From Hadesarchaea archaeon (GTDB taxonomy: Archaea > Hadarchaeota > Hadarchaeia > Hadarchaeales > Hadarchaeaceae): 64,000 nt of DNA. The number at the start of each line of letters is the position of its first letter. Within the stretch, counting starts at the first letter, position 1. Below the pieces are notes generated by a model, which ran no database searches, was not told the DNA's origin, and worked only from the letters and a program-made list of their open reading frames with translations. The stretch spans positions 128,001-192,000 of the forward strand of contig JAPDJH010000001.1 of NCBI GenBank assembly GCA_029259175.1, given 5' to 3'. The position numbers and the translations under genes are program-made. Of this stretch, positions 12,606 to 32,131 are shown piece by piece.

Positions 12606-12650
12606 ACTCGCTATCGACTTTTTAATTTGCCCGGAAGCAAATAAAAAATC

Positions 12651-13554: not shown

Positions 13555-13583
13555 TATTTCACGATTAGATTTATATTTCACGA
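13555..13583 (+). promoter_or_regulatory. Direct-repeat operator flanking a TATA box
   Basis: TATTTCACGA at 13555-13564 and 13574-13583, around TTTATAT, upstream of the wHTH gene. Confidence 0.5.
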
Positions 13584-13604
13584 AAAATGAGGTAGACCGA
13601 CGCT

Positions 13605-15206: not shown

Positions 15207-15268
15207 AAAATCTATGTAATGAAGCCATAGAATTGAGAGTTTATACTAATGGAAAGACTAAGTAGAAT

Positions 15269-15691
15269 TTGGTGAGCGCTGTGAAACATTGGTTGTGTAT
15301 CACCAACGAAGCCAATTGGGCGGTTGTGAAAACCAAGAAAGTATGGGGTGTTAATTCGAAACACGAAAAAGTAATGAATATGGTAGAGAAAGACGATAAA
15401 TTAGTTTTTTATGTGAAGCCTTTACGCATTGGAGGTATTTTCACCGCAATTTCCAAACCATATAAGGATGAGACTCCTATTTTTTCTGGAGGAGAATTTC
15501 CTTACAGAGTTAAGATTAAACCACTCGTGCTCCCGAAAAAATTCCTCGACTTTTACTCATTGTTTGGAAGACTCAAATTCATCACTCAAAAGAAGAAAAA
15601 AGGTTGGGGCGGGCACTTACAAGGAAAAGCTATGCGAATTATTCCAAAAGAAGATTTTGACTTGATCAAAAGAGAATTAGAGCGGATTTAA
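15269..15691 (+). CDS. EVE (PUA-like) domain protein
   Basis: HWLCITNEANW...VWGV...DKLVFYVK...FPYRVKIKP...MRIIPKEDF. Confidence 0.85.
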   Translation: MVSAVKHWLCITNEANWAVVKTKKVWGVNSKHEKVMNMVEKDDKLVFYVKPLRIGGIFTAISKPYKDETPIFSGGEFPYRVKIKPLVLPKKFLDFYSLFGRLKFITQKKKKGWGGHLQGKAMRIIPKEDFDLIKRELERI

Positions 15692-15703
15692 AGGTGATTT
15701 TTA

Positions 15704-17155: not shown

Positions 17156-17270
17156 TTACTTTTCCAATAGCGGTTTGTTTTAAACTCAGGGGAGGACTTG
17201 AGGGTCAGGACCCAAGCAGTTAAAAACTTTCCACCATTATTAAGCAGGGGCCTGTGAAGGTGGTAAGAAC

Positions 17271-17936
17271 ATGGGTATTAAATGTAGAGTTCTTTCCGAT
17301 GACCAAAGAAATATTGTGGTAGAATTACCTATTACTTTGCCCACAGCCTTAGTTAGAATTAAAGATAAGGATGGAAATCCAGTTGGGAGTGTTAGACAAC
17401 AAAATCTAAGGAAAGGGTGGTATATCGAATGGCAAATTTCATATTTTGATGAAAATAAGGAACTTGTGGAATTAGGGGAAATGTTCAGACTACTGGTAGA
17501 ATTCGGAAAACTCAACGAAGCAGAAATAAAAGAACTTTACCAAAACATTCAAAAAAGGAACACATTTTTTGAAGAAATTTTTTCTGTTTGTTTAGAAGAG
17601 AGTAAAAAACCACCAGAATTCGAAGGGTTTGTGTTATGGTATAGGAAAAACCCAATTTTGAGAAAATATCTTTCTGATGGTTCCATCATCCACATAGAGT
17701 TAAGACATAAACAAAAAGCTGTGGGATACCAAGCTATGTTGTATCTATTTATTCCCATAGAAAATGTGAGATCGAAGGAAGGCGAATTGATAATAAACCG
17801 TCCCGCACGTCAAAAAGAGGTCGTTGTGTGGTTTCCAAAAAAAGAACACATTATAGAACTTGTAAAAGCGTTTTCTTGTATGTCGAGAAAGCATTTCGAG
17901 GATATTATGTCTATAGTTAGGAGTTTTCTTTGTTAA
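17271..17936 (+). CDS. R.PabI-family restriction DNA glycosylase (HALFPIPE fold), catalytic residues intact
   Basis: IVVELPIT.PT..VRIK, YIEWQISY, HKQKAVGYQAMLYLFIP and SRKHFED match R.PabI motifs as I recall them. Confidence 0.9.
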   Translation: MGIKCRVLSDDQRNIVVELPITLPTALVRIKDKDGNPVGSVRQQNLRKGWYIEWQISYFDENKELVELGEMFRLLVEFGKLNEAEIKELYQNIQKRNTFFEEIFSVCLEESKKPPEFEGFVLWYRKNPILRKYLSDGSIIHIELRHKQKAVGYQAMLYLFIPIENVRSKEGELIINRPARQKEVVVWFPKKEHIIELVKAFSCMSRKHFEDIMSIVRSFLC

Positions 17937-17961
17937 TTACCAAAAATGCCCAGAGGAGAAC

Positions 17962-18579
17962 ATGATCGTGCAAGTTCAAGGTGATAAATTAGTTGTGGAA
18001 TTTCCTCTTAGTCAACCAAAAAGTTCTTGGAGAGTCAGGTCAAAAAAAAGAAGAGGGCGAAGGGGCTGGAAAAAAGACCCGAATTTATGGATTTTTAGAC
18101 CCACTTTTGGAGACTTGATCTATGAAGGAGACATTTTCGAATGGATGATAAGTAATGAGGAACTGCGCGAGATACTTTATGTTGCAAAATGCATGGAAGC
18201 TGATTATTATGAAGAAATCAAGAAAGCCATACATAATTTGAACAAGTTTGAAAGTCACGTAGATATAACACTTGGTTGGGGCGTAAAAATCGAAGGTGAA
18301 CTGAGACCCAAACAAAAAAAAGGAGAAGAACTGACTCCCTGGTTTTTTATTTTGTTTCCATTGGATAGAAGTTCAAATGTCTACTATTTGAAAGATGCGA
18401 AAAACAACAAGATTGAAAATCCCATCAACCGAAAAATCAGAGCAGGAGATAGACTGGTTTGGGTTGTAGATCTCAATTGGCTCAAAACCATTATTCTTAA
18501 ATTGGCTGGATTGAGCGAGGATCATAAGGAAAAAATTATTAAGGAGGTCTTTGAACCAATTGATAATCTCAAGTTATAA
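17962..18579 (+). CDS. Divergent R.PabI-fold paralogue, probably catalytically impaired
   Basis: Colinear motifs LVVEFPLSQPKSSWRVR, FEWMISN, LRPKQK...WFFILFP, NRKIRAGD, LSEDHKEK. Confidence 0.7.
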   Translation: MIVQVQGDKLVVEFPLSQPKSSWRVRSKKRRGRRGWKKDPNLWIFRPTFGDLIYEGDIFEWMISNEELREILYVAKCMEADYYEEIKKAIHNLNKFESHVDITLGWGVKIEGELRPKQKKGEELTPWFFILFPLDRSSNVYYLKDAKNNKIENPINRKIRAGDRLVWVVDLNWLKTIILKLAGLSEDHKEKIIKEVFEPIDNLKL

Positions 18580-19257
18580 ATTTACTCTAAACAATCTTTT
18601 TTGAGCGAGCTGGTAGTATCTCTTATTTATTTCAAAACCGATAAACCGTCTTTTCAGTTGCTTACAAGCCACAGCAGTACTCCCGCTTCCGATGAAAGGA
18701 TCCAAAACCAAATCGCCTTCCTTAGAAAACATCCGTAAAATTTCTTTGATGAAGTGCTTGGGTTTAGGCGTTGGATGGTCTATAAACCCTTCGTCGGGTT
18801 CAACCAGCTTCCCCGGAGTATCAATGAAAAGATCTCTATTTCGGGAAATTATTTTTGGATTTCCTTTTTTGAAAACGAAACAAGACATATACTTGGTAAT
18901 ACCAATTGGAGATCTAACTGCTCCCTCAGGACAGTATAAAATAATTTGCCAAAAATATGTGAATGGATTGTGTTTGAACAAAGCAGGCAAAAATTTCGTG
19001 CTAAAAAATGTGATGAAAAAAGAGTTGTCTCTTAGCACCCTATAGCACTCGGGCAGAATTTTATAGAAAGTTGTCAAATTTTCGTCACTATAAACTCCTT
19101 CCTTACCAAGTCCGTAAGGTGGATCTGTAAGGATTAAATCTATTTTTCTGTTAGGTATTTTTTTGATCAGCTGGAGAGCATCGCCACAAATTATTTTATT
19201 AATGAAATCATCTGGAAACTTCAATTTCGAAATGTCATCGTTTCTTTGTGTGTCCAT
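18574..19257 (-). CDS. Class beta N4-C/N6-A DNA methyltransferase
   Basis: LILTDPPY precedes HPTPKP and VLDPFIGSGSTAVA. Confidence 0.9.
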   Translation of the reverse strand: MDTQRNDDISKLKFPDDFINKIICGDALQLIKKIPNRKIDLILTDPPYGLGKEGVYSDENLTTFYKILPECYRVLRDNSFFITFFSTKFLPALFKHNPFTYFWQIILYCPEGAVRSPIGITKYMSCFVFKKGNPKIISRNRDLFIDTPGKLVEPDEGFIDHPTPKPKHFIKEILRMFSKEGDLVLDPFIGSGSTAVACKQLKRRFIGFEINKRYYQLAQKRLFRVNL

Positions 19258-19688
19258 TTATCTCCCGATAAAATTCGGTTGGAGTTCCTTAAAAACAGAA
19301 AAACTGTTTTTATGTCGGGGAGCGAGTCTCTTTCTTTGATGGACTTCTCGGTAGCCTCCCAATCTGGTTTTCTTCCTTTTTCTATCTCAGCCACAGCGAA
19401 TACTGTATCCACTCCCACCGCGTTCACCTCCCGTAATCTCGCATTCTCTTCATTTCATAAAAATTTCCTGCCAGACTTTATCAATCGGAACGAGAGCTTC
19501 AAATATGACACATGGCAACCGAAATAGAAACCCCTCAATTACGACACGTCCAATACATAAGCCTTAGGTGAGTTTCCCAGCTTGGGAAAAATCTATTTCA
19601 AGAACGGTGCGGAGGCAGATTCATCTATGGCTCGACCACCACGTATTCTTGGACAGCAAACAGAAACGTCTATGTGGATTGGCGTTGT

Positions 19689-20267
19689 TTACTTAATTTT
19701 ACTCCATTTTCCAACATACCTTTCAGGATACATATGTAGATTCTTTTCAACTTTCAGACGGTATTTGGGAGGGATTTTTCTCTTGTATTCCTCATATGTA
19801 GGATAACGGCAGAGAAGACACGGATTGGTTTTTGGATGAGCAGCACCGAATTCCTTTCTTTTCCCCCTCCATATCATCTTCTTCACTTCTTCTCGCAACT
19901 CTCCGTGGGTGAATATTATGAATTCTTTCGGTTTGTGTCCTTCAAAAGTTACGAACACGCAATAATCAAATTTTTTCTGGATGATTTGCTTGCCAAGCCC
20001 AAAAGATGCATCAGCGTAGCCATCCTCATCAATCAACCCTGTTTTTACCTCCACTCTCTTCCCTTTATCTGGAAGATAAATGTCGGCGGATTTGTCTTCT
20101 CTTTCATCCAATATCTGAACTTTGTGCCCTCTCTTCAACAATTCAAGGGCGACTAAGTATTCCGCATATCTTTCCCTTAATTTTTTGTCAGAAATTTCAA
20201 CCTGATCCAAAATCCTCAACACTCTTTCAAGATATTTTACGATTAAACTCAGTTCCTTCTTTCTCAT
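19689..20267 (-). CDS. PD-(D/E)XK nuclease (putative REase)
   Basis: YAEYLVALELLKRG...ADIYL...RVEVKTG. Start ATG 20267. Confidence 0.7.
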   Translation of the reverse strand: MRKKELSLIVKYLERVLRILDQVEISDKKLRERYAEYLVALELLKRGHKVQILDEREDKSADIYLPDKGKRVEVKTGLIDEDGYADASFGLGKQIIQKKFDYCVFVTFEGHKPKEFIIFTHGELREEVKKMIWRGKRKEFGAAHPKTNPCLLCRYPTYEEYKRKIPPKYRLKVEKNLHMYPERYVGKWSKIK

Positions 20268-20668
20268 CGCCTTTACTTGTATTAGTGAGAAATAAATCTT
20301 CCCAAAATTTAGTATCCACCTGTCCACTCTAAGGAGGGTATGCCCCCTCCAAAATCCCGTGCCCTCTCTCCCTTTCAAGCCTCCTGATCTGATCGCCTCT
20401 GTGTTAAGACAGCCTCCTCGCAAAGCCTCGGCTTGGCTCAGCCCCCAAGCCCGGCTGTCTTGCGCTCAGCCCATTTTCAGGTAATTTTATGGGTACATGG
20501 GCTCCCGCAGTGTACAGGCGGATCCCAAATTCGCCCAAAAAGAAGCCCGTATAAACCTCCTTTTCCCCCTCTGCGTACTGGTGGAGCTGAAATTTAGGAG
20601 GCTAAAAATGGCGGTGAACTTTTCATTTTAACCCCAATGACGAATAAACATATCGGAGATGGGTTCGT

Positions 20669-21400
20669 ATGGGTTCGGCTCGGAGGTTAGAGGTCTCTTT
20701 CCCGATTGATACTGAAATGGCTGTGCGAACCGTTTTTGACAAGTTCCACGAAAAGTTAGGATATCCCAAGATACTTGAAAGCAGAGAAAAGTTTCCCGAC
20801 TACATTTTAGAAGATAGGAGAGGGAGAATAGTTCGTGCGGAAGCCAAACACTACGCCAGCGGAGCTAAAAGGTATAAAAAATTGGCTGAAAAGTGCGACT
20901 TGATAATATGCTGGTACGACGATTGGGGTGAGTGTCCCGTGCCCTGCTTGGAACTATGTAAGTATGTTAAAGCCAACCCGACCAAGGAAGTAATTGTTGT
21001 GCCCATCGGAAGGGGAAGAGAAAGACAATTAGATCCAGAAGTTGAGTGGCAAGTGATAAGAAAGAAGCACTTTTATCGATTACCATTTTGGGGGGGACCG
21101 AAGTATGAGGCAAAATACATCGCTTTCTATCACAGAGGAATTGAATACATAGCAAAACTAAAACTCCCATATGAAAAAACAACTTGGGGAAAAATTTACC
21201 GAGAAATTTATAGACTAACAAAAGATGAACGGTATAAACCAGAACCAGAATGGGAAAATGAACCCGCACTCAAATTGAAATTTGGTAGACTCATAAAAAT
21301 TAGAAAAATAGAGTTAAAGGGACCTTTTAGATTATGGCGTTACACTACTTTTGAAAAATTGTTGACGGCTAAAACGGTAGCTGAATTGACAGAAAAGTAA
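20669..21400 (+). CDS. PD-(D/E)XK nuclease fused to a C-terminal PUA-like domain
   Basis: FPDYIL...VRAEAK...CDLIICW; C-terminal half VIVVP..W..FYRLP..KYIAFY..IEYIAK. Confidence 0.65.
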   Translation: MGSARRLEVSFPIDTEMAVRTVFDKFHEKLGYPKILESREKFPDYILEDRRGRIVRAEAKHYASGAKRYKKLAEKCDLIICWYDDWGECPVPCLELCKYVKANPTKEVIVVPIGRGRERQLDPEVEWQVIRKKHFYRLPFWGGPKYEAKYIAFYHRGIEYIAKLKLPYEKTTWGKIYREIYRLTKDERYKPEPEWENEPALKLKFGRLIKIRKIELKGPFRLWRYTTFEKLLTAKTVAELTEK

Positions 21401-21402
21401 GG

Positions 21403-22143
21403 CTAATCTTCAACTATCGCAGCCCCACCCACCACCAAGTCCTGAGCCGCCGCGAACTCCTCCACGAGACTTGGCGGACAACGGGCTTCGCTGAGCAAAG
21501 CGAGTTTCGGCGTTAGCTTCCTCGCCACCACCCGCACCGAGTTCTCTCCCTTCTTCTTCCTCGCCACGGCTTTCGCATAGCCATCGGTTTCAAGCCTTCT
21601 CACTCGGTGTTCCCTTTTCGTGATGTGGGCGGGCAAATGCCACGAGGCTTTCACACTCGGGGAAGAAGGCTCAGCCCAGAGGCGGATGTAGGCACTCGGC
21701 ACCACCACGCAATCCAGAGGTGGCTCCAAACGCTTCAAATACCCATCTTTGACCACATACACCTTCCCGCCAATCCCCACGAACCGCCACCCCAACGGCT
21801 TCGCAAACCTCACCGCTTTGCCAGAAGGCTTGGTTTCCCCCATCAGTACCTCCAAAGGCACTTCGCAGTAAAGTTCAGCCTTCAGCCACTTTTGAAGTGA
21901 GAAAAAGTCCCTAACTCCCATCTCTATTTCTCGCTTGGCTCGTCTCAGGATCACCCGCCTTTCCGAGTGGTGTTCGTGCCTGATGCTTAGCCCCCCGACT
22001 TTGCTTTCCTCGTTCTCAAAGGGCAACTCAGCCAACGCCAGCCCTCTCGCAACCGTAAGCGGGATGGTCAGCCCGTATTTTTTGCCCTCTTGAACCAGCC
22101 GCACCAACCACCTCCGCCCCCGTTTAACGAACCAGAACCTCAT
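21403..22143 (-). CDS. Hypothetical basic protein
   Basis: 246-aa ORF overlapping the upstream ORF; no recognised motif. Confidence 0.55.
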   Translation of the reverse strand: MRFWFVKRGRRWLVRLVQEGKKYGLTIPLTVARGLALAELPFENEESKVGGLSIRHEHHSERRVILRRAKREIEMGVRDFFSLQKWLKAELYCEVPLEVLMGETKPSGKAVRFAKPLGWRFVGIGGKVYVVKDGYLKRLEPPLDCVVVPSAYIRLWAEPSSPSVKASWHLPAHITKREHRVRRLETDGYAKAVARKKKGENSVRVVARKLTPKLALLSEARCPPSLVEEFAAAQDLVVGGAAIVED

Positions 22144-22489
22144 CCCGCTCAGCCTCCGTGATTGGAATCCGCTGGTGAATGGGACAACGCTTGGCTTTCC
22201 CCTTCAGCAACTCCCCCAACATAGAAACCCATCCCATCGCCTCAACCCCTTCGCCCCGTGCCACGACATAGAAGTGGTTTCCATTCCGAGAGAGGGCGAT
22301 GTAACCGACTGGCTCCTTTTCATCCTCGCCGTTTTTCACGAGCACGACATAGTGCTTTTTGCCCCACACCATTTCCTCAAGCGCCGCGAGTTTACAAAAC
22401 GCCTTGAGTTTCCTCGCCGCGACAAACGCCCCACCGTTGGAGTTGCGGATGAGGTAGCCGATGACTCTGCCCGCCCTAAACCTCGCCAT
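22124..22489 (-). CDS. Hypothetical beta-rich protein
   Basis: 121-aa ORF, GGTGA RBS; internal GY(L/I)xxxxNG duplication. Confidence 0.55.
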   Translation of the reverse strand: MARFRAGRVIGYLIRNSNGGAFVAARKLKAFCKLAALEEMVWGKKHYVVLVKNGEDEKEPVGYIALSRNGNHFYVVARGEGVEAMGWVSMLGELLKGKAKRCPIHQRIPITEAERDEVLVR

Positions 22490-22523
22490 TCACCACTGTA
22501 CAGGCGGGAGGCATATAAGGTGG

Positions 22524-23288
22524 TTATCGGATCGTGTCTAAATTCTGAATAATCAACTGGAAAGAATTATGACCTATAAACCAAGCTCCCTCGTTGAATT
22601 TGATGGGCGAAACCTTAGCCTCCAGACACTCCTTCACAATTTTTTCTCTAATCTCGTGTTCTTTGTCGTTGTCTTCTACTATCCCAATCTTGGCGGCGAC
22701 CCTTCTCACCCAAGTATCAATCGGTTGAAAAAATTTCATATCTTCTATGCGGATTTTTCCCTCTCTCTCCAAGGAATATACCGTGGCTACATCCCTAAGA
22801 TAAATTGAGGCGATTTTCGGACCAACCGAATGGATCCTATCCAACTCCTTATAATGTTCTTCTACTTCCCCACGCTCAATTTTTGAAATGGTGTACTCCA
22901 CCAAACTCCCTTTATCTACGACCTCTCCCCTTGAAGCGAATTGTATGATTTCAACCGTCATTTGGATGTCTCTTCCCCTTCCAACTCTCCCTTTCCCAAT
23001 TACTTGTCTAAGCTCGTTTCTTATTCTTTGAAGTTCTCCATCTGTTACTCCTATAGTTTGGGGTGTAATGTGTTGCTTTAAAACATTCATCGCTCGCCTC
23101 TCAACTTTCTCTGAGATCGCGTCTCTGCGCCCCTGATAGAAAGAGCGTCTTAAAAGGAATTGAAGCCCTCCCCACCAATTCCTGCGTATCAAATCTCTGT
23201 TTTCAAAATCTCTTCCCAAATATTCCCCTTCATAACGGTTGCCGAAGTCTGCTATTTTTCTGATTTTGATTATTTTTTCCTGCTCCAT
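22524..23288 (-). CDS. HhH-GPD superfamily DNA glycosylase-like protein without Fe-S cluster
   Basis: LDRIHSVGPKIASIYLRD (HhH motif) and QPIDTWVRRV (catalytic Asp). Confidence 0.7.
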   Translation of the reverse strand: MEQEKIIKIRKIADFGNRYEGEYLGRDFENRDLIRRNWWGGLQFLLRRSFYQGRRDAISEKVERRAMNVLKQHITPQTIGVTDGELQRIRNELRQVIGKGRVGRGRDIQMTVEIIQFASRGEVVDKGSLVEYTISKIERGEVEEHYKELDRIHSVGPKIASIYLRDVATVYSLEREGKIRIEDMKFFQPIDTWVRRVAAKIGIVEDNDKEHEIREKIVKECLEAKVSPIKFNEGAWFIGHNSFQLIIQNLDTIR

Positions 23289-23430
23289 CTGATTTTTCTC
23301 TAACCTGACTCCTATTTATCTCGCTCTCGTAAGAACAAGTTTTGCTGGGATTTCGCCGTTCTCTATCATAATATTGGAAAATTTTTCGGTGTCGTGATCG
23401 CATTAATACTAATTCCGACCTTTCTTTACT

Positions 23431-23850
23431 GTGAGCCAAACCCACGCCCAGAGCACGGGTGTAAAGAGGGATTATCTTCCTCGTCCTGAATACCTACGAA
23501 AAAAGAGCTTGTGGGACTGGTTACGAGCCTGTGGCGTCCGTCCGCAGTTCATCGGGGCTATTGGTTTCTTTCTCAAGGTCTACCAACGCGCTAAACGCTT
23601 GGGGCTTCTTCCGTGCTTCACCTATCAGGATGTTGATGAACGCTTTCTCTCAATTTGCGCAAATTTGAATATGAAGCGGGAGACGGCTCGGCGTTTCGTG
23701 CGGTGGTGCTGTAGGCGCGGCTTGATTTATCTCGTCCCTGGAAGCCGCGAGAAGCTTGGCTACCACCTTTTTCTGGTAAGAGACGACACCTTCAACTTCC
23801 TGTTGGAATTGTGTCGATACGCAAAGCTCTTCAAGGAGGCGAGGCGATGA
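23431..23850 (+). CDS. Hypothetical protein, probable winged HTH
   Basis: NMKRETARRFVRWCCRRGLIYL. Confidence 0.5.
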   Translation: MSQTHAQSTGVKRDYLPRPEYLRKKSLWDWLRACGVRPQFIGAIGFFLKVYQRAKRLGLLPCFTYQDVDERFLSICANLNMKRETARRFVRWCCRRGLIYLVPGSREKLGYHLFLVRDDTFNFLLELCRYAKLFKEARR

Positions 23851-24518
23851 AGCGGGAAAGTCCTATCGAAGAATTCAGGCAGCGCCTTACGAAACAAATC
23901 CAAAAACTGCCCGACCCGTTTTGGTACACGCTCGCGGTGGGTGCGATCGGCTTTGGTCTCTTTTTGTTCTGGGATGTCCGGGTGATTGAGAGAACTTTTT
24001 CTAACTTGGTCGTAATCTACTTTATTTCCATCAGCACCGCTATCGCTTTGCTGAGCGCGTATGGTTCACGCGTGTATGCCGTGTGGCATAAAATCAAGGA
24101 TGAGTTGGACGCGTTCGCGGTCGTTTTCCCGCGGCGAGTGTGGGAAGATGCCGTTGCCTCCCGCGAACTCTCGCGCCTCTTAGGGGATCTCCACCATCGG
24201 CTCCGCCAACTCTATCCTGAAGCTCCAGAAACCCGCGTCGCTACTTTCTTGGCTGAGTTCGGAAAAGAAGCGGAGCGAATTTACAGAGAGCACGAGAGCG
24301 ACTTGGTCCGCCACGAAGCTCTCAAGCTCGCTTTCGAGAACCTAAGCAAGAAATACAGGATCCCCGTCGTGCTGAACATCCGTAAGGCAGAAACATACCC
24401 ACACCTCGGCGGCGCCTTCTGGCTCTTCGACATTCACCGCTTAGACGCCGACGAAGTGGGCCTGCTTAAACAAATCAAAGAGAGCATGCGAGTGTGGGGA
24501 GCAAAAAGAGAGGCATAA
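23847..24518 (+). CDS. Membrane protein, 2 N-terminal TM helices
   Basis: Hydrophobic segments FWYTLAVGAIGFGLFLFW and LVVIYFISISTAIALLSAY; ATGA overlap with the upstream gene. Confidence 0.65.
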   Translation: MKRESPIEEFRQRLTKQIQKLPDPFWYTLAVGAIGFGLFLFWDVRVIERTFSNLVVIYFISISTAIALLSAYGSRVYAVWHKIKDELDAFAVVFPRRVWEDAVASRELSRLLGDLHHRLRQLYPEAPETRVATFLAEFGKEAERIYREHESDLVRHEALKLAFENLSKKYRIPVVLNIRKAETYPHLGGAFWLFDIHRLDADEVGLLKQIKESMRVWGAKREA

Positions 24519-24525
24519 CCGCTTA

Positions 24526-25257
24526 CTATTCCTTTTCCTCTGGTTCTCTTTTTGGAAATTCGAATAAGGCAGGTTTCTTCGTTATCGGGAATGCGCCCGC
24601 CGACTCTCTTAAAGCCCAAACAGCTGCCGATGTCAGCGGATCTACTTTAAACAGGAGAAGCTCCTTCCACTCTCGTAAGCAATCTAAGAGTTGTTGTAGC
24701 TCCGAGTTTTCGGCTTTTTCTGGTAGTTCCACATAGAGTAGTGCGTTTTCAAATTTCATGAAAACCTCAGACAACGAATAATTGAGTTTCCTTCGCTTGC
24801 TTTTTTCCTTTCCTAGAGAAGACAGCAGGGCTTCATGTCTATTGACGATTTCCCTAAGGTAGCGGCTTACAAGTTCGTGAAATAGTTTATTCTTACACAA
24901 CTCGCTGAACTTCTTCTCAACAAGAGGTCGCCGTCTGCTCCCAAGAATAACATAAAGGGCGGGGGGCATGAAAAGGGAGGGATCCCCTTGGCTCAGGAAA
25001 AATTTACAGAATTTGCCCCAGTTTATTTCGTAGTGCTGGTGTTTGCCGATCTTCTTACTGAGCCTCACAACCCCTAACTTTCTCAATTTATGTAAATATT
25101 CGATCACGGTGGGCGGCTTGACCCCCATGGTTTCCGCGATATCTTTCGGGGTGGTTCTGCCCGCGCTCAGGTAGAGAAGCACATTTGATATGCCCACGCT
25201 CCTCGACGGGGACCTGATACTCCGCTGGAACTCATCCATCGGCATCCGATAGTACAT
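24526..25257 (-). CDS. ArsR-type wHTH transcriptional regulator with extended C-terminus
   Basis: TPKDIAETMGVKPPTVIEYLHKLRKLGVV. Confidence 0.8.
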   Translation of the reverse strand: MYYRMPMDEFQRSIRSPSRSVGISNVLLYLSAGRTTPKDIAETMGVKPPTVIEYLHKLRKLGVVRLSKKIGKHQHYEINWGKFCKFFLSQGDPSLFMPPALYVILGSRRRPLVEKKFSELCKNKLFHELVSRYLREIVNRHEALLSSLGKEKSKRRKLNYSLSEVFMKFENALLYVELPEKAENSELQQLLDCLREWKELLLFKVDPLTSAAVWALRESAGAFPITKKPALFEFPKREPEEKE

Positions 25258-25277
25258 CCGTTCACTTGCTTATAAGT

Positions 25278-25359
25278 GTTAGGGCATGCCAAACAGTTAG
25301 AGAAAATTAAACGATTAGGGTTAACCGAAACATTTAAATACCATTAGGTTTAACCTAAT
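25278..25359. promoter_or_regulatory. Three related palindromic operators in the divergent regulator/parB promoter
   Basis: ATTAGGTT-T-AACCTAAT (25343-25359, perfect), ATTAGGGTTAACCGAAA (25314-25330), GTTAGGGCATGCCAAAC (25278-25294); TATA TTTAAATA at 25333-25340. Confidence 0.7.
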
Positions 25360-25360
25360 T

Positions 25361-26179
25361 ATGGTGAGAGCACGAGAAACAAACAGCTGGGTCATAGGCT
25401 TGGGAGAAAAGTTCAAGTTCATCGACTTCAAACAAATCCCGCTCGCGGACATCCAGCCGAACCCCCATCCGCTCCGCGAGCACAGCTCTGGGTGGTTGCG
25501 CAGATTCACGAAACACTTGAAGCGCTTCGGTGTGGTGGTGGAACCACTAATCGTCACGCGCAACGGCGGAAGGAAATACACCATCGTCGCTGGGATGGGG
25601 CGCTACCTAGCAGCCAAGAGAGCAGGACTGAAGTCGCTTCCGGCAATTGTCGTGGAAATTGACGAAAAAACGGGCTACGTCCTTTCCCTAATCGAGAACC
25701 TGATAAGAAACGGCTTGAACCCAATCGACGAAGCGAGAGCTTATAAACAGTTGATGGAGTGGGGGTGGACTCAGGAGCAAATAGGTTATCTCATCGGAAA
25801 AGATCAGTCGTATGTTTCTCACAGAATTGGTTTGTTAAAGCTCCACCCAGAAGTCCAGCAAATGGTTAAGGAAGGCTACGAAGTCAGCAAAGCGGAAATC
25901 CTCTGCACAGTAAAAAACAAGGAACTACAACTCGAACTCGCCAGAAAGTCCGTGAACTGGAACTGTAACAGGCTCAGCGAAGAAGTCCGCAAACTTCAGA
26001 ATGGGGGAGTGAAGCAAACCCCAAAACCAAAACCCTACGAATGCGAGTTTAAGAAAGCGGTTGACGCCCTCGTGGAAGCCGCCGTCCAGCGGAACCTGGA
26101 AGGGGACTGCGAGAGGTGCCCCATCCGAGAGAAGTGCCCCGAGGTGGTGAATTTCGTGAGGAGGTTGTTCCAATGGTAG
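25361..26179 (+). CDS. parB: ParB/Spo0J-family protein with C-terminal CxxC
   Basis: IQPNPHPLR, EPLIV, IVAGMGRYLA, IENLIRNGLNPIDEA, WTQEQIGYLIGKDQSYVS. Confidence 0.85.
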   Translation: MVRARETNSWVIGLGEKFKFIDFKQIPLADIQPNPHPLREHSSGWLRRFTKHLKRFGVVVEPLIVTRNGGRKYTIVAGMGRYLAAKRAGLKSLPAIVVEIDEKTGYVLSLIENLIRNGLNPIDEARAYKQLMEWGWTQEQIGYLIGKDQSYVSHRIGLLKLHPEVQQMVKEGYEVSKAEILCTVKNKELQLELARKSVNWNCNRLSEEVRKLQNGGVKQTPKPKPYECEFKKAVDALVEAAVQRNLEGDCERCPIREKCPEVVNFVRRLFQW

Positions 26180-27630
26180 GAGGAAAGAAATTCAAGAAGG
26201 TGGAAGGCTACGACGAGCCGCTGGAAATTTGGGAACTACCGAAGATGAGCCCGAAAAAACAACGGGAGCACTATGTCCCCGAGAGTTTTGAACACCGAGC
26301 GAGAATGGATGTGCTACTATGCCGAAAAATCATCGAGGAATACACGGAGCCTGGGGAACTCATCTTAGATCCGATGGCTGGAATAGGTACAACCTTGGTT
26401 GAGGGAGCCTTGCTAAATCATGATGTCATCGGTGTGGAGCTTGAGAAAAAATATGTGGAGATCACAAAAAAGAACATAGAGAAGTTAGAACGATATAGGA
26501 CTCTCGCCCCGAAAGGCAAAGCCATCATAATCCACGGGGACAGTCGCCATCTCTCGCAAATACTCGCCGAGAAAGTGGACTCGGCGGTGTTTTCGCCTCC
26601 GTATTTCATCCCCGTTGGAAAAGTCACTGAAGGTACCCTGCTCTGGAGAATAATGAATGGGAAGGGGCGTTACAAAGACACCATAGGGGGGACGAAGAGC
26701 TATGTGCCTTTCACCCAACATCCAGACAACATCCACAAGTTACGGAGATATGGAAATGTAGATAGCATAGTTAGTAGCCCGCCCTACGGCACTGAGGGGT
26801 TCGCTTCCAAGGATAAGAACCGCACCACCTACTTCCGACAGCTCGGTGCGAAGGTGGGCAAGTACACACGGAAAGATGCTTACAAAAGTCCACACAACAT
26901 TGCCAACTTGAAGTATGTAGAAATAGAAGCAATCGTTTGCTCTCCTCCCTACGGGGACTCGGTGAAAAACAGTGATGATCCAGAGAGGTTAGCCCGAGCG
27001 ATGGAGAGACGCGGCTGGGGCAACCATCACACGCCTGGGCGATTGCGCGGGCTGAAGGTGATATGTAGCGGCTACTCCGATAACAAAGACAACATCGGGA
27101 ACCTCCCCTATGGTAAAATCGGGGCTATCCTTAGCTCGCCACCATACTCTGAAGGCATCGGACACCAAGCGAAGAAGAAAGGTGGAAAGTACTGGCGCTA
27201 CCGCGAGCTAAATCTGCTATACACGGGTTGCTTGAGCAAGGACAATATTGCGAGGCTCAAGCATGGAGATGTCAACTCCGTGATAAAGGAGGAGAAGGAG
27301 CGAAAAAAGCAACAGGAAACATATCTTGAAGCAATGTACAAAATCTACTGCGAGTGCTTTAAAGTTCTCAAACCTGGAGGGAAAATGGTTTTGGTTGTTC
27401 GCCCCTTCTATAAAAACAAAAAGTTAATCCGCCTTGACTTGGACACTCGGAAACTATGCGAACTTGCTGGCTTTCGCTTCCTGGAGGCGAAACTCGTTCC
27501 GGCAAACAAATCGGTTTGGCGCCACATTTACGAGAAGAAGAACCCCAAAGCGAAGAAATCTCTCGTCAACTACGAGTTTGTCCTCGTGTTTGAGAAGCCA
27601 GCGGAAAGGGAGGTGGGCGGAAATGGCTGA
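26173..27630 (+). CDS. N4-C/N6-A DNA methyltransferase with four tandem SPPY modules
   Basis: ILDPMAGIGTT, GVELE, HGDSR, SPPY x4, YLEAM...FKVLKPGG. Start ATG 26173. Confidence 0.85.
   Translation: MVGGKKFKKVEGYDEPLEIWELPKMSPKKQREHYVPESFEHRARMDVLLCRKIIEEYTEPGELILDPMAGIGTTLVEGALLNHDVIGVELEKKYVEITKKNIEKLERYRTLAPKGKAIIIHGDSRHLSQILAEKVDSAVFSPPYFIPVGKVTEGTLLWRIMNGKGRYKDTIGGTKSYVPFTQHPDNIHKLRRYGNVDSIVSSPPYGTEGFASKDKNRTTYFRQLGAKVGKYTRKDAYKSPHNIANLKYVEIEAIVCSPPYGDSVKNSDDPERLARAMERRGWGNHHTPGRLRGLKVICSGYSDNKDNIGNLPYGKIGAILSSPPYSEGIGHQAKKKGGKYWRYRELNLLYTGCLSKDNIARLKHGDVNSVIKEEKERKKQQETYLEAMYKIYCECFKVLKPGGKMVLVVRPFYKNKKLIRLDLDTRKLCELAGFRFLEAKLVPANKSVWRHIYEKKNPKAKKSLVNYEFVLVFEKPAEREVGGNG
26572..27267 (+). 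repeat. Four intragenic protein-level repeats (~51-65 aa)
   Basis: Unit: (V/I)(D/E/G)(S/A)xxxSPPY-variable loop-(D/H)NIxxL(K/P/R)xG. SPPY codons start at 26593, 26776, 26941 and 27136. Confidence 0.9.
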
Positions 27631-28042
27631 GAATACCAACGAAGTAAGGATCAACACCGAAATCCGTGGCGAACCCGCTCGGTGGCTTGAGGAGTGGATA
27701 GCAAAGGGCTATGTCTCCTCGTATCGGGACGCCGTGGTGTGTGCCCTGAGAGCCCTACACGAGGAGATAGTCGAGGAGGACATAAAGGACGGGCAGCGGA
27801 GAACCGCCCTAAGGTGCCTCGGCGAGGAAGTCCCGAACAACGGCAATGGCAGGAAGCGGCTGAACTTCACGCTCAACGGGAAGGCTGCCGAATACCTGCG
27901 GGAACTACAAAAGAGGGGGTTGGTTCTCAAAACCCCCGACGCCATCGTTCAGGCGTTCAGAGCATTACATAAGAAAGTGGTTGAGCAGGAACTGAAGGAG
28001 ATTCAGCATAAGCGGGTGTTGAAAGAGCTGGGATACGAATGA
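27623..28042 (+). CDS. Tandem RHH-domain protein
   Basis: RINTEIRG...GYVSSYRDAVVCALRAL is repeated as RLNFTLNG...GLVLKTPDAIVQAFRAL; GGAGGTG RBS. Confidence 0.7.
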   Translation: MAENTNEVRINTEIRGEPARWLEEWIAKGYVSSYRDAVVCALRALHEEIVEEDIKDGQRRTALRCLGEEVPNNGNGRKRLNFTLNGKAAEYLRELQKRGLVLKTPDAIVQAFRALHKKVVEQELKEIQHKRVLKELGYE

Positions 28043-28212
28043 ACAAGCATCAGTGCTCCGAAGGCTCTTTTGCCCAGTGTGGGGCGTGAGGCGATTTAGG
28101 TGTCAAACCAGTCTTTTGAAAACTCGTTTGTTTTCCAGTTCTGAAAATCGTGAAATACAAACGGGGAGTTGTTTCTACCCCGCGGGACCACATCACGCTA
28201 TCTTGCGTCCAT

Positions 28213-28797
28213 TCATCGCTCCTTTGGGCAAAACTCCCGGCGGGGTGGCTGGACTTCCACGACGATCTTCTCCCCCTTCCGCAAGTGCTCGAGCAGCTCG
28301 CGCTCCTCCGGGTCTGTGACCTTCCGCTCGAGGTACTCCCAGTCGATTTGGTCAGCGTACATCGCCAGAAGCTCTTGGAGATCTGTGATGTCCTTGCCCC
28401 TGCGGAAGCTCAGCTTGGATCTGATGATGTCCTCCAGCGAGGCTATCGCGAGTTCCTTCCCCAAGAACCTGACTTTTCTTGCCCGCCGAAAGACCTCCTC
28501 ATCTTCCTCGAGAATCAAATCCACTCCGTAGCACTCGGGGGTCTTCAGCAGGGCCATTCCGAGCTTGTGGAAGTCCTCGCCGCGAAAGGCGAAGCCCCTG
28601 CGGGTGAACTCTTGGACTACGCGCTCCCACTGAGAGCCAGAGACTGCTAAGAGGATGTCGACATCACGAGTGACCCGGATGTAGTCGTAAAGGGCGCAGG
28701 CGACAGCACCCGTCAGGACGTACTCGATGTGGAGTTCACTGAGGATATCAACTGCCTTCAGTGTCACGCGCCCCAGAGGGCCGAGCTTATCCTGCAC
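28213..28797 (-). CDS. DUF6036/AbiEii-like nucleotidyltransferase
   Basis: YVLTGAVA...RVTRDVDILL...SLEDIIRSKL..R.KDITD. Confidence 0.75.
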   Translation of the reverse strand: MQDKLGPLGRVTLKAVDILSELHIEYVLTGAVACALYDYIRVTRDVDILLAVSGSQWERVVQEFTRRGFAFRGEDFHKLGMALLKTPECYGVDLILEEDEEVFRRARKVRFLGKELAIASLEDIIRSKLSFRRGKDITDLQELLAMYADQIDWEYLERKVTDPEERELLEHLRKGEKIVVEVQPPRREFCPKER

Positions 28798-29116
28798 GTC
28801 TGCCCGCCTCTCTTATCGCGATGAGAAAACTGAAATTCGCATCCAGCTCACGGAATCTTTGGGCTATTTTGTTCGGGCTGAGCTCTGCAGAGGACCGCAA
28901 CAGTTTCCTCCCCCTGGCCGTGAGCCTCCAGCCGCCCCAGATGGGGTTCTCCACGTAGCCCTCCTGCTTGAGCCCGCTGAGCATCTTGGCCACGGCCCCT
29001 CTGCTCTTCCCCATCCGCTTGACGAGATCGCGGACTTGGGCGACCGGAAGCTCCCCACGCCTGCAGAGCTCCTCGACGATCCTGAGCAAGCGCACCGATT
29101 CCGGTCCCGGCTTCAT
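28787..29116 (-). CDS. wHTH protein, probable antitoxin/regulator
   Basis: KSRGAVAKMLSGLKQEGYVE...WRLTARG. ATG 29116 is preferred because the listed GTG lies inside the operator. Confidence 0.7.
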   Translation of the reverse strand: MKPGPESVRLLRIVEELCRRGELPVAQVRDLVKRMGKSRGAVAKMLSGLKQEGYVENPIWGGWRLTARGRKLLRSSAELSPNKIAQRFRELDANFSFLIAIREAGRRAG

Positions 29117-29134
29117 CTTCACCCGAATCAAGTT

Positions 29135-29163
29135 AGGTAACACTAGGTATATATGTGTTACCT
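29135..29163. promoter_or_regulatory. Inverted-repeat operator around a TATA box
   Basis: AGGTAACAC (29135-29143) / GTGTTACCT (29155-29163) flanking TATATA. Confidence 0.7.
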
Positions 29164-29225: not shown

Positions 29226-30350
29226 TTATCTCCTGCTCAGGCGCCTAATCCACTCGGCGAAAAAAATGTCGCCGATTTTCCCCATCTTATCGGGAGGAAT
29301 CCTCTCGACAATCCCTTTCTTCTCTAAAGCGTCATACGCTTTTTTCACATGGGAGGCCGACCTCATGCCGTACCTTTCGATAAATCTTGCTGAAAAGATG
29401 TTCGCATCAGGTTCAAGCGACATCCCACGGAGAAGGTTTCGTTGCCCCCTTCCCCTGAGCAAGTCCCATATCTGCTCATATTCCGCAGAATGGTGGGCGA
29501 TAATACGATCTATCGCTTCCTCTATGATCGAGGCGTCTCTAACATTTTTGTTCAAATTCCAGATCTCGTGGCAGAGCTGCTGAGTGAAATATGGGTGGCC
29601 TTCGGTGTAGTCCAAAATTTTTCCGGCTATCTCCTCCCGGATGCTCCCCCCTGCCTTATGAAACTTCTCGATGATAAAGCGCTTGAACTCTTTGAGAGGG
29701 ATCCTTCCCAGCTCCATCGGCTTGGCGAACCTGAAGAGAGGGCGATCTTCCCGAGAAAACATCTCCAGCAACAATCGGCGCTTGCTCCCAGCGAAAATGT
29801 AGGATGCATGGGCATGGCGTTCGAACTTTGCCTTCATGAGCTTCTCGAGCTTCAACCCGTTGAAATGGAGGATCTCTTGGAACTCGTCGAACGCGATGAT
29901 GACACGTTTTCTCTTTTCCTTCGCAACCATCTCAGGGAGTTCTAGGGCTTCCGCCATTTCTGGTGGGGTTATCTCCCTAGCAATGCTGACTTTCAGACCA
30001 TCTGGCGTTGTGGTGAAGCTGGGGCGCAGGCTAGACAAGAACTTTGTTGCTGACTTGATGGCTCTTTCTATCCTCCCGTAGGCCGCAGCCAAGACCGTCT
30101 CCACAATCCTTTCTGCGAGCGCAGTTTCAGAATCCACCTCATAGAGCTTTATGTGGACGAGAATCGCCTTTTCCCCAAGGCGCCGAGAGAATTCGGCAAT
30201 CAGGGAGGATTTTCCAATTCGTCGAGGGGTGAGCATGAGCACACTTTTTCCAGACAATAGCTCCTGTCGAAGTTCTTTCAGCTCTTGCTCTCGGTCCACG
30301 AAGTTCTCGCCGAAGACTTCAACTCCATACACAAATGGATTCGTTCCCAT
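29226..30350 (-). CDS. Archaeal ATPase (STAND/ATPase_2 family)
   Basis: NPF, FVDREQEL, PRRIGKSS, IAFDEFQ, GHPYFTQ. Confidence 0.88.
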   Translation of the reverse strand: MGTNPFVYGVEVFGENFVDREQELKELRQELLSGKSVLMLTPRRIGKSSLIAEFSRRLGEKAILVHIKLYEVDSETALAERIVETVLAAAYGRIERAIKSATKFLSSLRPSFTTTPDGLKVSIAREITPPEMAEALELPEMVAKEKRKRVIIAFDEFQEILHFNGLKLEKLMKAKFERHAHASYIFAGSKRRLLLEMFSREDRPLFRFAKPMELGRIPLKEFKRFIIEKFHKAGGSIREEIAGKILDYTEGHPYFTQQLCHEIWNLNKNVRDASIIEEAIDRIIAHHSAEYEQIWDLLRGRGQRNLLRGMSLEPDANIFSARFIERYGMRSASHVKKAYDALEKKGIVERIPPDKMGKIGDIFFAEWIRRLSRR

Positions 30351-31887: not shown

Positions 31888-32013
31888 TGGGCTGGCGGCC
31901 ATAGCGGCGGGGCCACACCCGGTCTCGTCCGATCCCGGAAGTTAAGCCCGCCAGCGATCCGGGTGGTACTGTGGTGCGAGAGCCCACGGGAGGCCCGGGA
32001 CGCTGCCAGCCCA
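31888..32013 (+). rRNA. rrf: 5S rRNA (archaeal)
   Basis: GGCGGCCATAGCGGCGGGG..ACACCCGG...GAAGTTAAGCC...GCTGCC; terminal helix TGGGCTGGC/GCCAGCCCA. Confidence 0.95.
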
Positions 32014-32053
32014 CTAAAAAGTTTTTAGTTTGGACTCCGCATCTATTCTCGGT

Positions 32054-32131
32054 GCCCTGGTGGTGTAGCCCGGTCTAACATGGAGCCCTGTCGAGGCTCC
32101 GCCCCGGGTTCAAATCCCGGCCAGGGCGCCA
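32054..32131 (+). tRNA. tRNA-Asp(GTC), CCA encoded
   Basis: Acceptor stem GCCCTGG/CCAGGGC; anticodon arm GAGCC-CTGTCGA-GGCTC; T-loop GGTTCAAATCC. Confidence 0.97.

What the first reader, a model, noticed from the sequence alone, without database searches (positions are those of the whole stretch)
26173..27630. DNA methyltransferase with one SAM-binding site and four tandem catalytic (SPPY) + variable-loop cassettes
Seen: a single motif I, then four units, each a beta strand + SPPY, an unrelated basic loop of roughly 30-45 aa, and (D/H)NIxxLx(Y/H)G; a fifth truncated unit start; then single downstream motifs. All four SPPY are intact although their codons have diverged, which suggests selection. 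Known: amino-MTases have one motif IV; multispecific phage C5-MTases multiply only their TRDs. Inference: alternative catalytic-strand/specificity cassettes dock into one Rossmann core, giving multispecific or switchable methylation, with recombination between the conserved ends shuffling cassettes. It may act as anti-restriction protection for the mobile element.
Basis: partly seen in the sequence, partly recalled or inferred. Interest (0 to 1): 0.85.

Follow-up and report, generated by a model that had tools for sequence, protein, structure and literature searches.

The report
Methyltransferase with four plug-in catalytic cassettes
This gene encodes a DNA-methyltransferase-like enzyme with one cofactor-binding core but four tandem copies of its catalytic strand, each with a different loop, and it belongs to a large, mostly viral, undescribed family carrying 1 to 11 such cassettes, probably a new way to give one enzyme several target specificities.

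Summary
ORF 26173-27630 (485 aa) has one motif I, four intact SPPY motifs (aa 141, 202, 257, 322), each preceded by a beta4-like strand and followed by a basic 32-42 aa loop and an N-I-x-x-L element. A truncated fifth unit and one C-terminal half-domain follow. It is a PF01555-type amino-methyltransferase in permuted order (X-I-II-III-IV-...-VIII) with no separate TRD.

This is a family trait. The 232 fetched homologues carry 1-11 SPP[YFWH] units, with length about 226 + 64 aa per unit. The loops fall into discrete, conserved types. These almost never repeat within a protein (10 same-type pairs against 41 +/- 6 expected) and occur at first, middle or last position. The strand and motif are equally conserved at all positions. 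Two 96%-identical viral genes differ by one whole cassette. Nine homologues also carry cassettes N-terminal to the SAM lobe. Relatives are mostly viral.

Best reading (about 0.55): each cassette is an alternative catalytic strand plus recognition loop that completes the single Rossmann core, giving multispecific protective methylation. No methylation or structural data exist, and substrate and docking are inferred. Seven literature searches found no description. Ongoing recombination within this gene is not supported.

The parts
25361..26179 (+). ParB/Noc-like gene (272 aa); its stop codon overlaps the methyltransferase start by 7 nt
   Evidence: PF02195 ParB_N 6.2e-16 and PF17762 HTH_ParB 7.3e-19; TIGR00180 at 97 bits against a cutoff of 58; the overlap is read
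26173..27630 (+). Multi-cassette amino-methyltransferase ORF (485 aa plus stop)
   Evidence: PF01555 at 98.2 bits (cutoff 26.7) in two stretches in permuted order, and PF01170 at 56.2 bits
26173..26574 (+). N-lobe, aa 1-134: motif X (H-R-A-R-M), beta1/motif I (aa 63-74, nt 26359-26394), beta2, beta3 with G-D-S, and alphaC
   Evidence: AF2 pLDDT 82-97 with strands E63-66, E84-89, E117-121; matches the C-terminal half of beta-class MTases 2zie, 5hek and 6pbd
26575..26754 (+). Cassette 1, aa 135-194: strand, SPPY 141-144, loop (singleton type), D-N-I-H-K-L
26755..26916 (+). Cassette 2, aa 195-248: strand, SPPY 202-205, loop (type shared with P0002 and P0003), H-N-I-A-N-L
   Evidence: loop 47% identical to the P0002 loop
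26917..27114 (+). Cassette 3, aa 249-314: strand, SPPY 257-260, loop of the commonest type (H-T-P-G-R-L-R; 65 cassettes in 60 proteins), D-N-I-G-N-L
   Evidence: loop helices 270-298 reach pLDDT about 90; docks between beta1 and beta5 in the three-chain model
27115..27267 (+). Cassette 4, aa 315-365: strand, SPPY 322-325, loop of the S-E-G-I-G-H type (47 cassettes in 47 proteins), D-N-I-A-R-L
27268..27315 (+). Remnant of a fifth unit, aa 366-381: strand-like D-V-N-S-V-I without SPPY, then a linker
27316..27630 (+). C-lobe, aa 382-485: alphaD (E-T-Y-L...), K-P-G-G, beta5, alphaE, beta6-beta7, and the stop codon
   Evidence: AF2 pLDDT 86-98 with E404-409, E435-443, E467-474; aligns to residues 68-99 of 2zie
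27623..28042 (+). Downstream 139-aa ORF that overlaps the methyltransferase stop by 8 nt; no family match
   Evidence: 0 PHROG families; the 202-aa ORF that contains it has 0 Pfam families
19300..28200 (.). Approximate strain-specific segment holding the parB-MTase module; no DNA match in 12 related genomes
   Evidence: matches exist only for window about 15.7-19.2 kb and from about 28.3 kb on

Best explanation
The gene encodes a TRD-less, circularly permuted PF01555-type amino-methyltransferase with motif order X-I-II-III-IV-V-VIII. Its likely substrate is DNA. The segment [beta4 strand - SPPY - variable basic loop - N-I-G-N-L element] has been multiplied four times between a single SAM-binding N-lobe and a single C-lobe. 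I infer that each cassette is a self-contained 'catalytic strand plus recognition loop' module. Only one cassette at a time can fill the beta4 slot between beta1 and beta5 and so complete the Rossmann core, while the others loop out as flexible excursions. One polypeptide species would then yield several site specificities. That would protect the DNA of a virus or mobile element against several restriction systems. It would be the amino-methyltransferase counterpart of the multispecific C5-methyltransferases of Bacillus phages. Shown here: the architecture, the family-wide modularity, selection on every cassette, and the viral association. Inferred: DNA as the substrate, one specificity per cassette, and alternative docking.
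For: (1) Family trait. In 232 fetched homologues the number of SPP[YFWH] motifs is 1 (5 proteins), 2 (22), 3 (49), 4 (49), 5 (46), 6 (31), 7 (16), 8 (5), 9 (6), 10 (2) and 11 (1). Length is about 226 + 64 aa per motif, r = 0.89. (2) Every cassette is constrained alike. The strand pattern V/I-D-x-I/V-I/V-T before SPPY has the same or higher information content in middle (582) and last (205) units as in first units (198). The Asp at position -6 is found in 83% of first, 88% of middle and 92% of last units. (3) The 1023 loops cluster into 303 groups: 25 types have at least 8 members and 43 have at least 5. The top types occur about once per protein (65 cassettes in 60 proteins, 64 in 64, 60 in 59, 47 in 47). 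There are 10 same-type pairs within a protein, against 41.3 +/- 6.3 in 2000 shuffles with a minimum of 20. (4) Types occur at first, middle and last positions. In 9 of 232 proteins, complete cassettes of the same types lie N-terminal to the SAM lobe. This placement argues against a contiguous structural repeat array. (5) Within a type, loop identity (0.42-0.68) is similar to core identity in the same protein pairs (0.48-0.60). Loops of different types are 0.31 identical. (6) Whole-cassette indel: the MTases of viral loci L096 and L098 are 96% identical (477/498) and differ by one 61-aa cassette. (7) Structure prediction. The single-cassette homologue P0025 folds confidently (pLDDT 87.4, pTM 0.84) with beta4 docked at E132-137 and its loop 144-173 disordered. 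With the same 69 sequences, the four-cassette protein has both lobes above 90 but no strand anywhere between residues 121 and 404, and its first SPPY is below 50. (8) Three-chain model of N-lobe 1-133, C-lobe 376-485 and internal cassette 240-314. ipSAE was 0.87, 0.87 and 0.83, against a best control of 0.17. That mark was reached by 58 of 80 solved complexes and 2 of 110 mismatched pairs. The runs agree in at least 81% of contacts, and partner pLDDT is at least 56. Cassette residues 252-255 touch beta1 (63-67) and beta5 (403-406), and the N-I-G-N-L end (308-314) touches the start of alphaD. (9) The loop right after motif IV is one of the DNA-recognition loops in CcrM, and SPPY is motif IV of an N4-cytosine MTase (passages of PMC10406627). 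(10) Viral association. Of 36 IMG/VR loci examined (out of 79 returned), 31 carry 2-7 units. Their neighbours include terminase, portal, family B polymerase, a replisome organiser and other MTases. The nearest ESM-Atlas clusters are 76-93% viral. (11) In the window the gene is translationally coupled to parB. It lies in a segment with no DNA match in 12 relatives. Of 40 relatives, only one has a strong protein match.
Against: No methylation, binding or structural experiment exists for any member. No member is present in cultured phages or PLSDB plasmids: 0 records cover at least 80% of the query. Exchanging a central beta-strand is kinetically demanding, and I know of no natural precedent (recalled). 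The undocked cassettes would be long and largely disordered, with pLDDT below 50. The pass may only reflect likeness to solved methyltransferase folds, since it is in effect a split single chain. Only cassette 3 was tested. AF2's failure to dock any strand may be an artefact of the alignment of repeats. Loops 1 and 4 are poorly conserved against the nearest homologue (29% and 22%), and loop 1 is a singleton type. By fold, the closest solved structures to the single-cassette homologue are the tRNA m2G enzymes Trm11, Trm14 and TrmN, so an RNA substrate is not excluded. The loop types were defined by similarity, so the within-type identity is partly circular. The homologue set was gathered with a four-cassette query and is biased towards multi-cassette members.
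Confidence: 0.55

Rival explanations
1. Only one cassette, for example the first (contiguous with alphaC) or the last (contiguous with alphaD), is ever catalytic. The other units form an expanded TRD-like or DNA-clamping array, and their SPPY is kept for structural reasons.
For: There is one SAM site, so only one active centre can exist at a time. The loops are basic and Gly-rich: K+R is 18.6% against 15.1% overall, and 65% have net positive charge. This composition would suit non-specific DNA binding. Some types prefer the last position (type 4: 22 of 34; type 12: 11 of 12).
Against: The strand and SPPY are conserved equally at all positions. The same loop types occur at first, middle and last positions and even N-terminal to the SAM lobe. 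AF2 predicts no folded array. An isolated beta-strand plus SPPY cannot form a base-binding pocket outside the sheet (established knowledge of the fold, PMC7544214 passages).
Confidence: 0.2
2. The enzyme does not act on DNA. It is an RNA (Trm11/Trm14-like m2G) or protein amino-methyltransferase, and the cassettes address several RNA or protein substrates.
For: The top Foldseek hits for the single-cassette homologue are Trm11 (6zxw, 5e71), Trm14 (3tm5) and TrmN (3tma). TIGR01177 scores 2.6e-15 and PF01170 scores 56 bits. The linear motif order matches these RNA enzymes.
Against: PF01555 scores higher (98 bits). By sequence, all the best PDB matches are DNA MTases (2zie, DpnA, CcrM, N4CMT). No THUMP or other RNA-binding domain was found. 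The gene is accessory and virus-borne, and it sits next to parB and other DNA MTases.
Confidence: 0.1
3. Cassettes act in trans. Spare strands insert into the cores of other protomers (domain swapping), building oligomers or filaments on DNA rather than providing alternative specificities.
For: Beta-class MTases are generally dimeric (passages of PMC7544214). The three-chain model shows that a cassette can complement a core it is not covalently linked to.
Against: With one core per 1-11 cassettes, most cassettes would still be unused. This reading does not explain the discrete, non-redundant loop types. No oligomer prediction was run.
Confidence: 0.1
4. The extra units are decaying duplications or an assembly artefact and have no function.
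For: Loops 1 and 4 diverge strongly from the nearest homologue. A relative (G014) carries a truncated copy.
Against: All four SPPY motifs are intact with diverged codons. The pattern is family-wide and conserved. Contigs of three runs carry the identical sequence.
Confidence: 0.03

Closest known systems
Beta-class N4-cytosine / N6-adenine DNA methyltransferases (Pfam PF01555; e.g. TTHA0409 2zie, DpnA 5hek, CcrM 6pbd, rotifer N4CMT 8s9n)
   Same: Best sequence matches. Shared features are motif X and motif I of the D-P-x-x-G-x-G-T-T kind, an S/D-P-P-Y motif IV, an I-G-x-L/E element after the motif IV loop, and alphaD with K-P-G-G. In CcrM the loop after motif IV helps to read the DNA (PMC10406627).
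   Different: The order is permuted, with the SAM lobe first (query 39-102 aligns to chain 214-277, and query 380-411 to chain 68-99). There is no separate TRD. Motif IV with its strand and loop is present four times here, and 1-11 times across the family.
Multispecific C5-cytosine methyltransferases of Bacillus phages (SPR, phi3T, rho11s, H2)
   Same: One catalytic core carries several tandem, exchangeable specificity modules of about 40-60 aa with conserved ends. They are phage-borne and protect against several restriction systems. This is recalled knowledge. Trautner 1996 and Walter 1992 were seen only in the reference list of PMC7544214.
   Different: These enzymes use different chemistry and belong to a different family (no PF00145 hit). 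Their modules are TRDs only. Here each module also carries its own catalytic motif and central beta-strand, which implies that the core itself is remodelled.
Trm11 / Trm14 / TrmN tRNA m2G methyltransferases (PF01170 with THUMP)
   Same: They have the same linear order of motifs and are the closest solved folds to the single-cassette homologue. PF01170 matches residues 59-107.
   Different: There is no THUMP domain. Sequence similarity is weaker than to DNA MTases. The genes are accessory and viral rather than housekeeping. These enzymes have a single D-P-P-Y.
ParB-associated phage and plasmid DNA methyltransferases (ParB_N-MTase fusions)
   Same: The gene is translationally coupled to a ParB gene. 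A ParB_N-PF01555 fusion sits next to a family member in viral locus L106.
   Different: Here ParB is a separate full-length protein with an HTH domain. ParB adjacency was seen in only 1 of the 20 viral loci whose neighbours were scanned.

Membership tests
PF01555 N6_N4_Mtase / beta-class amino-MTase | Significant match to the family HMM | tested here: met
   98.2 bits against a gathering score of 26.7, E = 8.6e-28, two stretches
PF01555 N6_N4_Mtase / beta-class amino-MTase | Motif order IV ... TRD ... X-I (catalytic motif N-terminal to the SAM motif) | tested here: not met
   Residues 10-100 match profile positions 134-221. The PDB alignments are permuted. Motif I is at aa 66, before all four SPPY motifs
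PF01555 N6_N4_Mtase / beta-class amino-MTase | A single motif IV | tested here: not met
   Four SPPY motifs at aa 141, 202, 257 and 322
PF01555 N6_N4_Mtase / beta-class amino-MTase | Methylates the exocyclic amino group of A or C in DNA | not testable with these tools
   No member is present in cultured phages or plasmids, and no methylome data are available
Gamma-class amino-MTase (PF02384 N6_Mtase, M.TaqI-like) | Order X-I-II-III-IV-...-VIII followed by a C-terminal TRD, plus a PF02384 match | tested here: not met
   The motif order fits. However, there is no PF02384 hit at E <= 0.01, and the protein ends about 10 aa after beta7, so there is no C-terminal TRD
Multispecific phage C5-MTases | C5-MTase core (PF00145) | tested here: not met
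   No PF00145 hit for P0001
Multispecific phage C5-MTases | Several tandem, non-redundant specificity modules in one polypeptide | tested here: inconclusive
   The modules are discrete, non-redundant and shuffled, but whether each confers a specificity was not tested
Trm11/Trm14 (UPF0020 with THUMP) | PF01170 catalytic domain match | tested here: met
   56.2 bits against a cutoff of 22.3, but only residues 59-107 are matched
Trm11/Trm14 (UPF0020 with THUMP) | N-terminal THUMP RNA-binding domain | tested here: not met
   No THUMP hit. TIGR01177 scores 56.6 bits against a cutoff of 316

The most novel reading that the evidence does not exclude
This would be a natural 'alternate-frame folding' enzyme. 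Two half-Rossmann lobes clamp any one of up to eleven tethered cassettes, each made of a central beta-strand, the catalytic SPPY and a recognition loop. One polypeptide would then give a mixture, or a switchable set, of site-specific methyltransferases. The cassette types would form a portable, readable specificity code that viruses shuffle to match their hosts' restriction repertoires.
Probability: 0.45. Interest if true: 0.92.

Novelty: new variant of a known kind. Interest (0 to 1): 0.82.

Why it matters
Amino-methyltransferases are described as having one motif IV, with specificity residing in a TRD. Here hundreds of mostly viral enzymes multiply the catalytic strand itself, together with a short recognition loop. 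If each cassette confers a specificity, three things follow. First, it would be a new structural principle: alternative central strands completing one core. Second, it would be the first multispecific amino-methyltransferase family. Third, it would provide a compact module library (at least 25 recurrent loop types) for predicting or engineering methylation specificity and for reading virus-host restriction conflicts from metagenomes. The idea can be tested directly with one expression construct and long-read methylome sequencing.

Tried and rejected
(1) Ongoing recombination or cassette-number variation. The gene has no direct repeat longer than 21 nt. Contigs of three hydrothermal-vent metagenome runs from one study, two of which may be the source of this DNA, match the gene without differences or joints. 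Contigs drop rare variants, so this cannot show that variants are absent. No RNA holder was listed.

(3) A genome-contig scan with the single protein found nothing. The alignment-based scan gave 80 loci. Of the 23 I examined, only L001 (3 units), L002 (5) and L008 (2) were multi-cassette. Fifteen actinomycete, Chloroflexota and other loci had one SPPY. L036 had two, one of them an upstream SPPH that is probably chance. Four showed none in the ORF I picked.

(4) No integrase or phage structural gene was found around the gene. There were 0 Pfam or PHROG families for the seven ORFs between 19689 and 24518.

(5) Literature: seven full-text searches found no description of tandem motif IV or SPPY units. 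One search was too broad to be useful.

(6) A sheet-extension or solenoid model for the repeats was considered. I rejected it because AF2 predicts no strands in the array and because cassettes also occur N-terminal to the SAM lobe.

(7) Inteins, frameshifting and internal starts as ways of selecting a cassette were considered but not tested. Nothing in the sequence suggests them.
Full report
OBSERVATION. The ORF at 26173-27630 (+) encodes 485 aa. Its ATG overlaps the stop of an upstream ParB gene (ATGGTAG) and follows a GAGGAGG. A 139-aa ORF begins 8 nt before its stop codon. The protein has one motif I (D66-P-M-A-G-I-G-T-T) and four SPPY motifs at aa 141, 202, 257 and 322, each encoded by different codons. 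Each SPPY is preceded by a beta4-like strand. Each is followed by a 32-42 aa loop with net charge +3 to +5 and then by a D/H-N-I-x-x-L-x-x-G element. After the fourth unit comes a strand-like remnant without SPPY, and then a single alphaD / K-P-G-G / beta5-beta7 half. The units are old at the DNA level: the longest direct repeat is 21 nt at 76% identity.

WHAT KIND OF ENZYME. Pfam gives PF01555 (N6_N4_Mtase) at 98.2 bits in two stretches. Residues 10-100 match the C-terminal part of the profile (134-221). PF01170 scores 56 bits. By sequence, the best solved relatives are the beta-class DNA amino-methyltransferases TTHA0409 (2zie), DpnA, CcrM and rotifer N4CMT. They align in permuted order: query 39-102 aligns to chain 214-277, and query 380-411 to chain 68-99. 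The protein is therefore a beta-class-like enzyme opened where the TRD would sit. Its order is X-I-II-III-IV-V-VIII, and it has no TRD at either end. A single-cassette homologue (P0025, 281 aa) folds into a confident, complete methyltransferase domain (pLDDT 87.4, pTM 0.84). Its beta4 is docked and only the post-SPPF loop (144-173) is of low confidence. The nearest solved folds with the same linear order are the tRNA m2G enzymes Trm11, Trm14 and TrmN. This keeps an RNA substrate formally open, but there is no THUMP domain.

A FAMILY TRAIT. Searches gave 624 hits at E <= 1e-3 among the 7997 candidates scored. In the representative library they gave 5503 hits, 383 of them at E <= 1e-30. In the 232 proteins fetched, the number of SPP[YFWH] motifs runs from 1 to 11: 5, 22, 49, 49, 46, 31, 16, 5, 6, 2 and 1 proteins respectively. 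Length is about 226 + 64 aa per motif, r = 0.89. The set was gathered with a four-cassette query, so it over-represents multi-cassette members. Named sources include Deltaproteobacteria, Methermicoccaceae and Patescibacteria MAGs, and Gammaproteobacteria, Bathyarchaeota and Thermoproteota MAGs. The actinomycete and Chloroflexota relatives I examined have a single SPPY.

THE CASSETTES ARE MODULES UNDER SELECTION.
(i) The strand pattern V/I-D-x-I/V-I/V-T before SPPY is as informative in 582 middle and 205 last units as in 198 first units. The Asp at position -6 occurs in 83%, 88% and 92% of first, middle and last units. S-P-P is fixed by my definition of a unit, but the flanking residues are not.
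(ii) The 1023 loops cluster into 303 groups. Twenty-five types have at least 8 members, 43 have at least 5, and 184 are singletons. Each large type has its own conserved residues (counts).
(iii) A type almost never occurs twice in one protein. There are 10 same-type pairs, against 41.3 +/- 6.3 expected and a minimum of 20 in 2000 shuffles.
(iv) Types occur at first, middle and last positions.
(v) Within a type, loops are about as conserved (0.42-0.68 identity) as the N- and C-lobes of the same protein pairs (0.48-0.60). Loops of different types are 0.31 identical. This comparison is partly circular, because the types were defined by similarity.
(vi) Against its nearest homologue P0002, the window protein keeps loops 2 and 3 (47% and 50% identity; lobes 60% and 64%). 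Loops 1 and 4 have diverged (29% and 22%), although their strand and SPPY are kept at 63-80%.
(vii) Two viral genes (L096 and L098) are 96% identical (477/498). They differ by one whole 61-aa cassette plus a 23-aa loop indel, with a small diverged patch at the junction that suggests recombination with another allele.
(viii) In 9 of 232 proteins, complete cassettes of the same types lie N-terminal to the SAM lobe, some directly after the initiator Met, in addition to those between the lobes. There is still only one C-lobe.

STRUCTURE PREDICTIONS. AF2 was run on the four-cassette protein with the same 69-sequence alignment as the control. It gives both lobes pLDDT above 90. It places no strand anywhere between residues 121 and 404, and the first strand and SPPY (137-149) fall below 50. 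Only the helices of loop 3 (270-298) are confident. The predictor thus commits to a docked beta4 when there is one candidate and to none when there are four.

A three-chain model was built from N-lobe 1-133, C-lobe 376-485 and the internal cassette 240-314. It scored ipSAE 0.87, 0.87 and 0.83, against a best control of 0.17. That mark was reached by 58 of 80 solved complexes and 2 of 110 mismatched pairs. The runs agree in at least 81% of contacts, and partner pLDDT is at least 56. Cassette residues 252-255 contact beta1 (63-67) and beta5 (403-406), and the trailing N-I-G-N-L (308-314) contacts the start of alphaD. This shows that an internal cassette looks competent to fill the canonical slot. 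It may simply reflect likeness to solved folds. Only one cassette could be tested.

MECHANISM (inferred). With one SAM site, more than one SPPY can be catalytic only if the strands occupy the beta4 slot alternately. The layout [alphaC]-{strand-SPPY-loop-NIGNL}n-[alphaD] is what such register shifting needs. For any docked cassette, the upstream and downstream cassettes leave and re-enter at points that are adjacent in the native fold. In CcrM the loop immediately after motif IV is one of the DNA-recognition loops, and SPPY is motif IV of an N4-cytosine enzyme (passages of PMC10406627). In a TRD-less enzyme this loop is therefore the natural specificity determinant. I put about 0.55 on alternative docking giving multispecific DNA methylation. 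The base modified (m4C or m6A) is not determined.

CONTEXT. Thirty-six of the 79 IMG/VR loci were examined, and 31 carry 2-7 units. Forty-eight flanking ORFs from 20 of these loci were scanned. They include terminase, Mu-type portal, family B polymerase, replisome organiser, ERCC4, other PF01555 MTases and one ParB_N-MTase fusion. The nearest ESM-Atlas clusters are 76-93% viral. No cultured phage or PLSDB plasmid holds a full-length relative.

In the window the gene forms a parB-MTase-ORF139 unit. It lies in a segment of about 9 kb (about 19.3-28.2 kb) with no DNA match in 12 related genomes. An RM-rich island lies on one side and 5S rRNA plus tRNA-Asp on the other. Among 40 relatives, only G014 has a strong protein match, and that copy is truncated just after its first SPPF. 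No integrase or phage structural gene was recognised nearby. The genome is 1.3 Mb in 23 contigs, and the holding runs are hydrothermal-vent metagenomes.

COMPARISON AND NOVELTY. The functional analogue is the multispecific C5-methyltransferases of Bacillus phages. That comparison is recalled; the references were seen only in the reference list of PMC7544214. Those enzymes multiply TRDs only. Here each module also carries the catalytic motif and a central strand. The gene passes the PF01555 HMM test but fails the beta-class defining order and the single-motif-IV feature. It is not a gamma-class (PF02384), C5 (PF00145) or THUMP-type enzyme. Seven full-text searches found no description of tandem motif IV or SPPY units. 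REBASE, subscription journals and supplementary files could not be searched. I rate it a new variant of a known kind. The bolder reading, a natural alternate-frame-folding enzyme, is still open.

LIMITS. Everything about activity, substrate, specificity and docking is inference from sequence comparison and structure prediction.

Noticed in passing
window 6023-19257: Dense restriction-modification and defence island. It holds a PLD/NgoFVII-like endonuclease (6023-7051), a C5 MTase (11217-12605) next to an HhH-GPD glycosylase (12651-13325), an EVE domain protein (15269-15691), an N6_Mtase fused to a type I S-like domain (15704-17155), an R.Pab1-like endonuclease (17271-17936) and a conventional PF01555 MTase (18574-19257, minus strand). 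Part of it (15.7-19.2 kb) is shared at 66-76% DNA identity with same-genus genome G003.
   Followed up: partly
window 31891-32131: 5S rRNA (31891-32011, 101 bits) directly followed by tRNA-Asp (32054-32131). Both are conserved in relatives and bound the variable region on its right side.
   Followed up: partly
P0132, P0143, P0200, P0071, P0032, P0019 (also P0021, P0044, P0195): Homologues with one or two complete cassettes N-terminal to the SAM-binding lobe, some starting right after the initiator Met, in addition to cassettes between the lobes. They are hybrids of beta-order and gamma-order.
   Followed up: yes
L162 (G014:C43) nt 1426-1929: A same-family genome carries a truncated copy. It has the N-lobe and the first strand with SPPF, then a stop 7 residues later. 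No C-lobe was seen in the other frames of the 3.4-kb locus.
   Followed up: partly
window 28213-29143 (minus strand): A DUF6036 nucleotidyltransferase (28213-28797) overlaps a MarR-like wHTH gene (28787-29143), which may be a toxin-antitoxin-like pair. It is followed by an archaeal-type ATPase_2 gene (29226-30350).
   Followed up: no
L096 vs L098 (IMG/VR): Besides the whole-cassette difference, these near-identical viral genes differ by a 23-aa indel inside another loop and by a locally diverged alphaD start. This suggests patchwise recombination.
   Followed up: partly
L003-L057 (Acidimicrobiales, Micromonospora, Actinoplanes, Dactylosporangium and others): Cultured actinomycetes carry single-SPPY relatives with the same permuted order. 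These could be the nearest experimentally tractable members.
   Followed up: no
window 19689-24518: Seven ORFs of 121-254 aa have no Pfam match; six have no PHROG match, and one (19689-20423) has a marginal one (E 6e-4). All lie inside the strain-specific segment.
   Followed up: no
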